Assembly (NCBI GenBank): GCA_000165345.1 | Contig: CM000430.1 | Location: 608,001 to 672,000, forward strand | Reading direction: 5' to 3' | DNA length: 64,000 nucleotides | Part shown: positions 41,040 through 41,700 of the stretch, one piece after another | Numbering within the stretch: the stretch's first letter is position 1 | How the letters are laid out: each line of letters starts with the position of its first letter | Made by a program: the position numbers and the translations under genes | Notes under the pieces: generated by a model | Database searches by the model: none | What the model was told of the DNA's origin: nothing | Seen by the model: only the letters and a program-made list of their open reading frames with translations

Positions 41040-41700
41040 TGTTGTTGCTGGCTTTGTAGTGGTGGTGGTAGTAGTAGTAGTAGTTGTTGTCGTCGTAGTA
41101 GTAGATGTTGTTGGCTTTATGGTGGTAGTAGTAGTAGTAGTAGTCGTTGTAGTAGTAGTAGTAGTAGTAGTAGTAGTAGATGTTGTTGGCTTTGTGGTGG
41201 TGGTGGTGGAAGTAGTAGTAGTAGTAGTTGGCTTTGTAGTAGTGGTGGAAGTGGTAGTAGTTCTGCAGTAGTAGTAGTAGTAGTATTAATAGTAGTAGTA
41301 GTAGCTGTCGTTGTTGAGGTAGAAGTAGAACTTATATCTACAGCAGTAGCAGTAGTAGTAGTAGTTGTGTATGTTGGTGTCTGTGAGAAGTACTAGCAGT
41401 AGAAGTAGAGGTTGTAGTCGTAGTAGTAGTAGTAGTAGTAGTAGTAGTAGTAGTTGTAGTAGTAGTTGTTGTAGTAGTAGTAAATAGTAGTAGCAGTCGT
41501 AGTAGTAGTAGTAGTAGTAGTAGTAGTAGTAGTAGCAGTAGTAGTAGTAGTAGTCGTTGTGGTGGTGGTAGTAGTAGTAGTAGTAGTAGTAGTAGTTGTA
41601 GTAGTAGTAGTAGTAGTAGTAGTAGTAGTAGTAGTAGTAGTCTTTATGGTGGTAGTAGGAGGTGAGAAGTTAGGTGGTAGTTGGGGTTTAGAAAGTAAAT
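41040..41700. repeat. About 650-bp imperfect trinucleotide microsatellite (GTA/AGT/TAG)n with GTT, GTC and GGT variants
   Basis: Continuous gtagtagtag... runs from about 41040 to 41690. On the minus strand the three frames read poly-Tyr, poly-Thr and poly-Leu. The tract lies between the stop of the mucin gene (41710) and the start of the C-x-x-NP gene (40933). The plus-strand poly-Val ORF 41059..41271 is an artefact of the repeat. Confidence 0.9.

What the first reader, a model, noticed from the sequence alone, without database searches (positions are those of the whole stretch)
41040..41700. 650-bp GTA/AGT microsatellite wedged between two glycoprotein genes, with all three reading frames open for long stretches on the coding strand
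The tract is (GTA)n with frequent GTT, GTC and GGT substitutions. On the minus strand, which is the coding strand of both flanking genes, the frames give poly-Tyr, poly-Thr and poly-Leu/Gln. Stops occur only at a few positions (for example 41117-41119, 41332-41334 and 41393-41395). The mucin ORF stops at 41710, immediately before the tract. The downstream gene frame is open into the tract. A one-base slip would therefore extend the mucin by a long poly-Thr block, or fuse or alter the two genes. This is the kind of locus that produces strain-to-strain length and frame polymorphism in Cryptosporidium surface glycoproteins, and it could serve as a subtyping marker.
Basis: partly seen in the sequence, partly recalled or inferred. 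Interest (0 to 1): 0.5.

Follow-up and report, generated by a model that had tools for sequence, protein, structure and literature searches.

The report
Misassembled threonine-repeat core of one mucin gene
The "microsatellite between two glycoprotein genes" is the threonine-coding middle of one large Cryptosporidium parvum surface mucin gene, and in this copy of the genome the repeat was collapsed and frame-shifted, so one gene looks like two.

Summary
The repeat is real. It spans 41056-41641 as (GTA)195 on the + strand, which is (ACT)n, or Thr, on the coding strand, and it is the largest tandem repeat in the window. It is not a spacer.

The window is C. parvum chromosome 2. In the long-read C. 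parvum ATCC assembly the flanks are 100% identical. There, window 40982-41933 is replaced by about 1.2 kb that keeps a single frame open for 1,541 codons. That frame runs from the signal peptide of the "mucin" ORF, through the Thr-rich tract, into the 419-aa "gene", and ends at its C-terminal hydrophobic tail.

- C. canis annotates the syntenic gene as one 1,392-aa protein covering both halves.
- The Thr frame upstream of the 419-aa part stays open to the contig end in C. hominis (two assemblies), C. meleagridis UKMEL1, C. ubiquitum and C. serpentis. In C. tyzzeri it stays open across the whole locus, though through a 292-N gap.
- In the window the Thr phase jumps four times within the tract and once more at its upstream edge, about 256 bp are missing, and a non-repeat island is garbled. 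That island is 75.6% identical to ATCC, whereas ATCC is 95% identical to C. hominis.

The stop at 41710 and the "intergenic" status are therefore most likely assembly artefacts. Real polymorphism does exist, as an in-frame 3-bp indel between two C. hominis isolates. Overall this is an ordinary mucin domain plus a gene-model correction.

The parts
39674..44043 (-). Whole gene as it appears, broken, in the window. It is one mucin-like glycoprotein gene of 1,541 codons in the intact ATCC version.
   Evidence: L001 (C. parvum ATCC, CP044421.1) has one open stretch, 2593-7257, and the ATG-to-stop ORF 2635-7260 encodes 1,541 aa with no internal stop. C. canis KAJ1610821.1 (1,392 aa, single exon, syntenic) aligns to both window ORFs.
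43978..44043 (-). N-terminal signal peptide (MIINKKISVFLLLIIIVIFSFN).
   Evidence: It is one of only two hydrophobic segments in the merged protein, with a Kyte-Doolittle maximum of 3.27.
41934..43977 (-). N-terminal Asn/Ser/Thr-rich region, with no Cys.
   Evidence: It is identical to ATCC, because the first difference between the two is at window 41933. It is 40% identical to C. canis residues 39-592, E = 8e-76.
40982..41933 (-). The stretch that disagrees with the long-read assembly: the collapsed, frame-shifted copy of the central Thr-rich mucin domain.
   Evidence: All 105 mismatches and 364 gap columns against L001 lie here, and the flanks show no mismatches. In L001 the equivalent tract (4735-5998, 421 codons) has 0 stops in the Thr frame and 10 and 15 in the other two frames.
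41846..41919 (-). Pure (ACT)24.7 poly-Thr run, in the frame of the upstream ORF.
   Evidence: Tandem Repeats Finder gives 100% matches. The run is identical in ATCC.
41663..41845 (-). Non-repeat "noisy" patch. It holds the false stop at 41710-41712 and a 13-nt inverted repeat at 41740-41774.
   Evidence: It aligns only at roughly 60% (judged by eye from the alignment) to the KPTTTT-coding repeats of ATCC. The Thr phase is lost here. The inverted repeat is shown. The patch sequence was not found in the metagenome collection, but neither was the positive control.
41056..41641 (-). Period-3 array reported by Tandem Repeats Finder: GTA on the + strand, ACT on the coding strand.
41483..41662 (-). 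Thr-coding segment in phase 1 (coordinate of the first codon base mod 3).
41394..41484 (-). Thr-coding segment in phase 0.
41265..41545 (-). Garbled counterpart of the non-repeat island (VYTTSTSY...TAVDKSSTSTSTSTAFTTTINTT). About 256 bp are missing at its downstream edge, 41264/41265.
   Evidence: The ATCC island is 95.0% identical to both C. hominis assemblies but only 75.6% identical to the window. The deletion is seen.
40991..41264 (-). KPTTTT(S)T repeat block in phase 2, the best-preserved part of the tract.
   Evidence: It aligns closely to L001 5677-5943 apart from a 6-bp indel and a few substitutions. A 60-nt higher-order period is reported.
40980..40990 (-). One-base insertion with adjacent mismatches, creating the false TAA stop at 40980-40982 and shifting phase 2 to phase 1.
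   Evidence: The window reads ACCTCCAGTTAAC where ATCC reads ACTTCTA-CTAAC.
40934..40979 (-). Coding sequence upstream of the annotated ATG (..NITYTPNIDDLSNTLK), in frame with the 419-aa ORF.
   Evidence: It is conserved at the protein level in C. hominis, C. tyzzeri and C. meleagridis. C. meleagridis has Ile where C. parvum has the annotated start Met. pN/pS is 0.11.
39737..40933 (-). C-terminal part, currently the "419-aa hypothetical protein" EAK88702.1/XP_626507.1. It holds a short Thr run, a possible beta-alpha-beta-beta-alpha-beta module, and a 20-Cys CxC/NP-rich domain.
   Evidence: Exact match to the GenBank entries. There is no signal peptide at its N-terminus, and all 20 Cys of the merged protein lie here. 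Alignment. No Pfam match.
39677..39736 (-). Extreme C-terminal hydrophobic tail (HILQSLLIIFLNMMILYTNA). It looks like a GPI-anchor signal.
   Evidence: It is the second of the two hydrophobic segments and nothing follows it. The GPI reading is an inference.

Best explanation
The tract is the central mucin domain of a single gene of about 1,540 codons on C. parvum chromosome 2. The gene has a signal peptide, an N-terminal Asn/Ser/Thr-rich region and about 410 residues of Thr-rich repeats. In the intact sequence those repeats are ACN codons organised into 42-nt and 81-84-nt higher-order units around a 280-bp non-repeat island. Downstream lie a Cys-rich C-terminal domain and a terminal hydrophobic tail, probably a GPI signal.

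In the window this roughly 1.2-kb repeat was collapsed to about 0.95 kb and carries several small indels and miscalled stretches. The Thr frame therefore hops 0 -> 1 -> 0 -> 1 -> 2 -> 1, a false stop appears at 41710, and annotators called two genes.

By analogy with gp900, gp40/15 and other Cryptosporidium mucins, I infer that the Thr tract is densely O-GalNAc-glycosylated. It would form an extended stalk holding the N-terminal region away from the membrane-proximal Cys-rich module. Because the unit is three bases nested in 42/84-nt units, replication slippage and unequal exchange change its length in frame. This gives length polymorphism between isolates and rapid divergence between species.

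Shown here: the single ORF in other assemblies and species, the coding signature, and the confinement of the discrepancy to the tract. Inferred: that the cause is assembly error, the glycosylation, the GPI anchor and the stalk function.
For: 1. **Organism.** The window is C. parvum. The 419-aa ORF is identical to EAK88702.1 and QOY42917.1.
2. **Single ORF in ATCC.** Long-read ATCC locus L001 has one open frame of 1,555 codons across both "genes", giving a 1,541-aa ORF with no stop.
3. **Discrepancy confined to the tract.** The flanks are identical: 7,260/7,260 downstream, 2,100 bp of the upstream ORF, and no mismatches further upstream. All differences lie within window 40982-41933.
4. **Non-repeat island.** ATCC against C. 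hominis is 95.0% identical in two independent assemblies. ATCC against the window is 75.6%. For scale, the neighbouring gene is 96.8% identical between the two species.
5. **C. canis.** KAJ1610821.1 is one 1,392-aa single-exon gene next to the same UFD1/TRAF-zinc-finger neighbour. Residues 39-592 match the window's upstream ORF (E = 8e-76). Residues 970-1386 match the 419-aa ORF (67% identity). Ser/Thr repeats lie between them. C. ryanae XP_067197309.1 (874 aa) also carries the domain at the end of a longer protein that starts with a signal peptide.
6. **Other species.** The Thr-rich frame upstream of the annotated ATG is open to the contig end in C. hominis (two assemblies), C. meleagridis UKMEL1, C. 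ubiquitum and C. serpentis. In C. tyzzeri it is open across the whole locus, through an N gap.
7. **Coding signature.** Deviations from ACT fall at codon position 3: 15/7/53 in the window and 19/17/133 in ATCC. ATCC has 0 stops in the Thr frame against 10 and 15 in the other frames. pN/pS between C. parvum and C. hominis is 0.16 over 249 tract codons. Tract GC is 37-40%, against 13-19% in the true intergenic DNA nearby.
8. **Architecture.** The merged protein has exactly two hydrophobic segments, the N-terminal signal and the C-terminal tail. The 419-aa piece alone has 20 Cys but no signal peptide. Its annotated start Met differs from species to species and is Ile in C. meleagridis.
9. **Upstream models lack a stop.** The gene calls on record for the upstream model in ATCC and C. 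tyzzeri end on a Thr codon, not a stop.
10. **Literature.** The 2004 reference is described in general terms as containing indels, frameshifts and compressed repeats (PMC8744675). Later annotations were transferred by Liftoff from earlier ones (PMC12179316), which explains why the split persists.
Against: - Every annotation of the C. parvum clade held in the protein collection still lists the 419-424-aa model separately. This includes WRK31104.1, whose assembly of origin I could not establish. No transcript data could be examined here.
- I could not identify the window's accession, so "older Sanger assembly" is an inference.
- I could not look at reads, so a real, strain-specific degenerate allele is not formally excluded.
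- Alignment inside repeats is ambiguous, so the pN/pS value is approximate.
- The GPI anchor and the O-glycosylation were not tested.
Confidence: 0.85

Rival explanations
1. The window sequence is accurate. This isolate carries a degenerate, frame-shifted allele. The gene is truncated to a secreted, unanchored 777-aa mucin, and the C-terminal domain is either silent or expressed separately.
For: No reads were available to prove an error. Repeat tracts do mutate quickly: two C. hominis isolates differ within it. The 256-bp loss has repeat motifs at both ends, which would fit a real deletion as well as an assembly collapse.
Against: - At least five independent frame changes, about 100 substitutions and a scrambled non-repeat island fall within 950 bp, while more than 12 kb of flank is 100% identical to ATCC.
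- The island is closer between species (95%) than between these two C. parvum copies (75.6%).
- Units of 3 nt do not slip out of frame.
- IOWA lines differ by only about 143 variants genome-wide (PMC8744675).
Confidence: 0.08
2. The tract is a non-coding, hypervariable microsatellite spacer between two independent glycoprotein genes, and slippage can occasionally fuse or alter them.
For: In the window as given there is a stop at 41710-41712 and an ATG at 40933. Current C. parvum, C. hominis, C. tyzzeri and C. meleagridis annotations list two genes.
Against: - There is a single ORF in ATCC, C. canis and C. ryanae, and in C. tyzzeri through an N gap.
- The tract shows a codon-position-3 bias and a low pN/pS.
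- Its GC content is far above that of the real spacers.
- The downstream product lacks a signal peptide, and its start codon is not conserved.
- The upstream models in ATCC and C. tyzzeri have no stop codon.
Confidence: 0.03
3. There is one continuous ORF in the genome but two products. An internal promoter, or proteolytic processing, yields a separate C-terminal polypeptide of about 419 aa alongside the full-length mucin.
For: GP900 and gp40/15 are proteolytically processed mucins (PMC9111948 title and abstract; otherwise my own knowledge). Annotators have kept the 419-aa model.
Against: - An internally initiated product would lack a signal peptide although it is Cys-rich with a GPI-like tail.
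- The proposed start Met is not conserved.
- Post-translational cleavage is compatible with the best explanation rather than a rival to it.
Confidence: 0.04

Closest known systems
GP900 (cgd7_4020), the large C. parvum mucin-like glycoprotein
   Same: Both have a signal peptide, long poly-Thr domains encoded by ACN codon runs, alternating Cys-containing non-repeat domains, and a membrane attachment at the C-terminus. Both are expected to be O-GalNAc-glycosylated. (GP900 features come from the PMC9111948 abstract and from my own knowledge.)
   Different: No sequence relationship was detected or tested. Only orthologues of this gene turned up in the searches. GP900 has a transmembrane helix plus a cytoplasmic tail, whereas this protein ends in a bare hydrophobic tail of the GPI-signal type. 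The gene lies on chromosome 2, not chromosome 7.
gp60/gp40/15 (cgd6_1080) and Muc25/MSC6-7 (cgd6_40): mucin genes whose coding repeats are used for subtyping
   Same: Trinucleotide or short coding repeats specify Ser/Thr runs, vary in length in frame between isolates, and lie in secreted or anchored glycoproteins. (Muc25 as a polymorphic subtyping marker: PMC12407990. gp60: my own knowledge.)
   Different: This tract is about 1.2 kb with nested 42- and 84-nt units. That is too long and too repetitive for routine PCR/Sanger typing or short-read assembly, and no typing scheme using it was found.
Metazoan membrane mucins (MUC1, MUC16): a VNTR-encoded Pro/Thr/Ser (PTS) domain, a membrane-proximal SEA domain and an anchor
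   Same: Overall layout: signal peptide, long tandem-repeat Thr-rich stalk punctuated by Pro (KPTTTT), a compact membrane-proximal module, and an anchor. The low-confidence model shows beta-alpha-beta-beta-alpha-beta topology at residues 91-212 of the 419-aa part.
   Different: There is no homology. Foldseek gave only generic ferredoxin-like hits, with a MUC16-like SEA domain at E = 0.068, and the model's mean pLDDT is 38. The resemblance is one of design only.
Repeat collapse and split gene models in draft genome assemblies
   Same: A repeat longer than the read length becomes shortened. Indels create false frameshifts, one gene is annotated as two, and the models are then propagated by lift-over. 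This is described in general terms for Cryptosporidium in PMC8744675 and PMC12179316.
   Different: Nothing differs in kind. This particular locus was not mentioned in the papers I could search.

Membership tests
Cryptosporidium mucin-like secreted/anchored glycoproteins | N-terminal signal peptide | tested here: met
   The hydrophobic segment at aa 7-21 of the merged ORF has a Kyte-Doolittle maximum of 3.27. It is conserved in C. tyzzeri, C. canis and C. ryanae. No dedicated signal-peptide predictor was available.
Cryptosporidium mucin-like secreted/anchored glycoproteins | Long in-frame Thr/Ser-rich low-complexity domain | tested here: met
   In ATCC, 280 of 421 tract codons are Thr and 34 are Ser, with 0 stops in that frame. 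In the window the same domain is present but broken across three frames.
Cryptosporidium mucin-like secreted/anchored glycoproteins | Dense O-linked GalNAc on the Thr/Ser domain | not testable with these tools
   This needs lectin blots or glycoproteomics.
GPI-anchored surface protein | C-terminal hydrophobic tail preceded by small residues, with no cytoplasmic extension | tested here: inconclusive
   The tail at aa 1522-1541 ends the protein, and an SNS motif lies about 12 residues before it. No GPI predictor or biochemical test was available.
Neutral intergenic microsatellite | Lies outside any conserved ORF | tested here: not met
   It lies inside a single ORF in ATCC, C. canis and (through an N gap) C. 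tyzzeri. It is in frame with the downstream domain in five more assemblies.
Neutral intergenic microsatellite | Unit deviations spread evenly over the three positions, and base composition like the neighbouring spacers | tested here: not met
   There is a position-3 excess, p = 3e-11 in the window and 1e-34 in ATCC. Tract GC is 37-40% against 13-19% in the spacers.
Frame-switching contingency locus (phase variation by slippage) | Repeat unit length is not a multiple of three, so that slippage changes the frame | tested here: not met
   The unit is 3 nt, nested in 42-, 60- and 81-84-nt units. The one natural length difference seen is a 3-bp indel.
SEA domain (membrane-proximal module of metazoan mucins) | Ferredoxin-like beta-alpha-beta-beta-alpha-beta fold with significant structural or profile similarity to SEA domains | tested here: inconclusive
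   The topology is predicted at low confidence: block-mean pLDDT about 33-70 across residues 91-212, whole-model mean 38. The best SEA hit has E = 0.068 among many generic folds. No Pfam match.

The most novel reading that the evidence does not exclude
All public gene sets for C. parvum, C. hominis, C. tyzzeri and C. meleagridis in the collection split this gene. The split would hide a conserved surface mucin of about 1,500 aa, running from a signal peptide to a GPI-like tail. Its stalk would be a fast-evolving, length-variable minisatellite. Its membrane-proximal part would combine a ferredoxin-like (SEA-like) module with a genus-specific 20-Cys domain. That layout would be convergent with metazoan membrane mucins, and the protein would be an overlooked adhesin or antigen candidate.
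Probability: 0.15. Interest if true: 0.5.

Novelty: new member of a known kind. Interest (0 to 1): 0.25.

Why it matters
For anyone working on Cryptosporidium surface antigens, two "uncharacterised proteins" next to each other on chromosome 2 should be treated as one large mucin-like glycoprotein, probably GPI-anchored.

This affects several kinds of work:
- antigen arrays and knock-out or tagging designs;
- orthology tables and dN/dS screens;
- variant calling, because differences here are currently counted as "intergenic".

It is also a concrete example of a collapsed coding repeat whose split gene models were carried forward by lift-over into newer assemblies. It does not reveal a new mechanism. 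Thr-coding repeat domains and their in-frame length polymorphism are well known in this genus.

Tried and rejected
- **Upstream ORF search.** A homology search with the whole upstream ORF was swamped by low-complexity words: 8,000 candidates, none significant. A masked N-terminal query found only a 140-aa C. meleagridis fragment, so the upstream models of C. parvum are apparently not in that collection. Exact look-ups of five upstream or merged translations also failed.
- **Gene identifiers and literature.** Searches by accession and by guessed gene IDs (cgd2_31xx, CPATCC_00060x, cmbei_20031xx) found nothing about this locus. No supplementary tables were held. The cgd identifier therefore remains unconfirmed. 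The name cmbei_2003130 suggests cgd2_3130 for the 419-aa part, but I did not verify this.
- **Metagenome scans.** A scan for the window-specific "noisy" 31-mer found nothing, and neither did a positive-control scan for a conserved junction 28-mer. The collection holds no copy of this locus, so both results are uninformative.
- **C-terminal domain.** The AlphaFold2 model is poor, with mean pLDDT 38. Foldseek against the PDB gave no hit with E <= 0.001. A profile search of PDB sequences and Pfam at relaxed thresholds gave nothing.
- **Rejected ideas.** An intron is unlikely, because the tract is in frame and Thr-coding in relatives. Coding on the + strand is ruled out, because the poly-Val ORFs there are by-products of the repeat and one + frame is all TAG. 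Multi-frame coding is not supported, because open frames are automatic for (ACT)n.

Full report
**What is in the window**

Tandem Repeats Finder reports a period-3 array at 41056-41641: 194.7 copies of GTA, 77% matches, score 476. A 60-nt higher-order period sits at its low end, and a separate perfect (GTA)24.7 lies at 41846-41919. No other repeat in the 64 kb comes close.

On the minus strand the unit reads TAC/ACT/CTA. None of these is a stop, so long open stretches in all three frames are automatic and mean nothing by themselves.

So are the stop of the upstream 777-aa ORF at 41710-41712 (ATG at 44043) and the open frame running from the 419-aa ORF (39674-40933) back to 41116.

**First sign that the tract is coding but broken**

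Translating the minus strand shows poly-Thr punctuated by Lys-Pro, Ser and Ala. This is typical mucin sequence, but it is spread over all three frames in turn:
- phase 1 for 41662-41483;
- phase 0 for 41484-41394;
- phase 1 for 41383-41264;
- phase 2 for 41258-40986.

The upstream ORF is in phase 0 and the downstream ORF in phase 1.

Within each segment, deviations from ACT fall overwhelmingly at codon position 3. The counts are 15/7/53 for positions 1/2/3, p = 3e-11. The "GGT/TGT/CGT substitutions" on the + strand are therefore synonymous Thr codons.

Tract GC is 37-40%. The real spacers on either side of this gene pair are 13-19%.

**Identity of the locus**

The 419-aa ORF is an exact match to C. 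parvum Iowa II EAK88702.1/XP_626507.1 and to ATCC QOY42917.1. Orthologues at 84-98% identity exist in C. tyzzeri, C. hominis, C. meleagridis and C. ubiquitum, and one at about 40% in C. serpentis. The contigs are chromosome 2, about 0.99 Mb.

**Comparison with a long-read assembly of the same species**

The locus in C. parvum ATCC (CP044421.1, locus L001) matches the window exactly over the 7,260 bp from the downstream ATG onward and over the first 2,100 bp of the upstream ORF. There are no mismatches further upstream either. All 105 mismatches and 364 gap columns fall within window 40982-41933.

In ATCC that interval is about 1.2 kb, and a single frame stays open for 1,555 codons (2593-7257). 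The ATG-to-stop ORF 2635-7260 encodes 1,541 aa with no internal stop. Across the 421 tract codons the Thr frame has 0 stops, while the other two frames have 10 and 15.

The ATCC tract consists of two arrays built of 42-nt (x8.1) and 81-84-nt (x4) units. These arrays flank a 280-bp non-repeat island.

Relative to ATCC, the window shows these differences:
- It lacks about 256 bp of the second array.
- It has a one-base insertion at about 40983 that creates a false TAA.
- It has a scrambled version of the island.
- It has a 180-bp patch (41663-41845) of non-repeat "noise" that contains the stop at 41710 and a 13-nt inverted repeat.

**Which version is right?**

The ATCC island is 95.0% identical to each of two independent Illumina assemblies of C. 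hominis, a different species whose neighbouring gene is 96.8% identical. It is only 75.6% identical to the window.

Suppose the window were an accurate allele. Then it would have accumulated at least five frame changes and about 100 substitutions in 950 bp while differing at zero positions in more than 12 kb around it. IOWA lines are reported to differ by about 143 variants genome-wide (PMC8744675). The same paper describes the older reference in general terms as containing indels, frameshifts and compressed repeats.

I therefore read the window's version as a collapsed, low-quality consensus. This is an inference. I could not inspect reads or identify the window's accession.

**Evidence from other species that it is one gene**

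An exhaustive profile search with the 419-aa family found C. canis KAJ1610821.1, at 1,392 aa, and C. ryanae XP_067197309.1, at 874 aa.

- The C. canis protein comes from a single-exon gene next to the same UFD1/TRAF-zinc-finger neighbour.
- Its residues 39-592 align to the window's upstream ORF (40% identity, E = 8e-76).
- Its residues 970-1386 align to the 419-aa ORF (67% identity).
- About 370 residues of Ser/Thr repeats lie between the two.

In C. tyzzeri the whole locus is one open frame, although it runs through a 292-N gap. In C. hominis UKH1 and TU502_2012, C. meleagridis UKMEL1, C. ubiquitum and C. serpentis the contigs end inside the tract, and the Thr-rich frame is continuous with the downstream domain up to the contig end.

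The annotated start of the 419-aa model differs in each species. The C. parvum Met is Ile in C. meleagridis, yet the residues before it (NITYTPNIDDLSNTLK) are conserved. pN/pS between C. parvum and C. hominis is 0.16 over the alignable tract codons and 0.11 at the junction (approximate because repeats align ambiguously).

The gene calls on record for the upstream model in ATCC and C. tyzzeri end on a Thr codon, not on a stop. The newer annotations were transferred by Liftoff from older ones (PMC12179316), which explains why the split persists.

**Architecture and likely function**

The merged protein has exactly two hydrophobic segments. One is an N-terminal signal peptide. The other is a 20-residue tail at the extreme C-terminus, which fits a GPI signal (an inference). 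All 20 Cys lie in the C-terminal part.

Taken alone, the 419-aa piece would be a Cys-rich extracellular-type domain with no signal peptide, and the 777-aa piece would be a mucin with no anchor. Thr makes up 27% of the merged protein.

By analogy with gp900, gp40/15 and other Cryptosporidium mucins (abstracts listed, PMC12407990, and my own knowledge), the tract is most likely a densely O-glycosylated stalk.

Its nested 3-, 42- and 84-nt periodicity predicts in-frame length change by slippage or unequal exchange. The one natural comparison available agrees. Two C. hominis isolates differ by one ACT unit and one SNP in 908 bp of tract, and by nothing in 4,485 bp of flank. Between species the domain keeps its position and composition but not its sequence: KPTTTT in C. 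parvum and C. hominis, NPTTTT in C. meleagridis, IPTTTT in C. serpentis and TSRSTSTSTEVAS in C. canis.

**Side investigations**

The C-terminal domain has no Pfam family and no PDB sequence relative. The AlphaFold2 model is poor, with mean pLDDT 38. It does show a beta-alpha-beta-beta-alpha-beta element at residues 91-212. Foldseek returned only generic ferredoxin-like folds, with a MUC16-type SEA domain at E = 0.068. This is a lead, not a result.

**Verdict**

The three open frames are trivial. The intergenic position and the stop at 41710 are very probably artefacts.
- Length polymorphism is supported. Frame polymorphism is not.
- The locus is an ordinary member of a well-known class, the Thr-repeat mucin domains of Cryptosporidium surface glycoproteins.
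- The practical value is a gene-model correction: two "hypothetical proteins" are one mucin of about 1,540 aa, probably GPI-anchored.
- Interest is low to moderate.

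Noticed in passing
L005 6116-6770 (C. meleagridis cmbei, CM077708.1): Inside the same tract this hybrid chromosome-level assembly carries about 650 bp of GC-rich CTGCTG-type noise with several stops. It looks like unpolished long-read error. Here too it splits the gene into two models, of 820 aa and 413 aa. 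The short-read UKMEL1 contigs show clean NPTTTT repeats on both sides.
   Followed up: partly
L001 4888-4893; L002 5053-5058: The gene calls on record for the upstream model in C. parvum ATCC and C. tyzzeri end on Thr codons (…TTT|KKP and …TTT|STT) with no stop codon. This suggests truncated or lifted-over models rather than real gene ends.
   Followed up: partly
window 41740-41774: A 13-nt inverted repeat (AACCACTCCTTCT / AGGAGGAGTGGTT, 9-nt loop) lies in the non-repeat patch that ATCC lacks. It may be a trace of a cloning or read artefact.
   Followed up: partly
window 29759-29897, within ORF 28536-30140 (+): A 12-nt tandem repeat (x11.6) encodes (E/D)SP(I/V/A) tetrapeptide repeats in an acidic protein that begins with a signal peptide. 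It is another coding minisatellite in a secreted protein and another possible length-variable site.
   Followed up: partly
P0009 (C. canis KAJ1610821.1): The full-length orthologue is named [quoted passage not shown]. No Pfam domain supports this. The name probably comes from the CxC-rich region and is misleading for a secreted mucin.
   Followed up: partly
window 39737-40660 (residues 91-212 and 220-355 of the 419-aa part): There is a predicted beta-alpha-beta-beta-alpha-beta module followed by a 20-Cys region with recurring C-x-C and N-P motifs. The Cys region is invariant from C. parvum to C. serpentis. A 194-aa C. bovis/C. xiaoi protein (P0011) carries only the Cys-rich part. It has no known family.
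   Followed up: partly
L002 5367-5658 (C. tyzzeri); ends of L003, L004, L006, L007, L008 and L009: Every short-read assembly of the C. parvum-type repeat breaks or is gapped exactly at this tract. Cross-species "gene content" comparisons will therefore mis-score this locus.
   Followed up: yes
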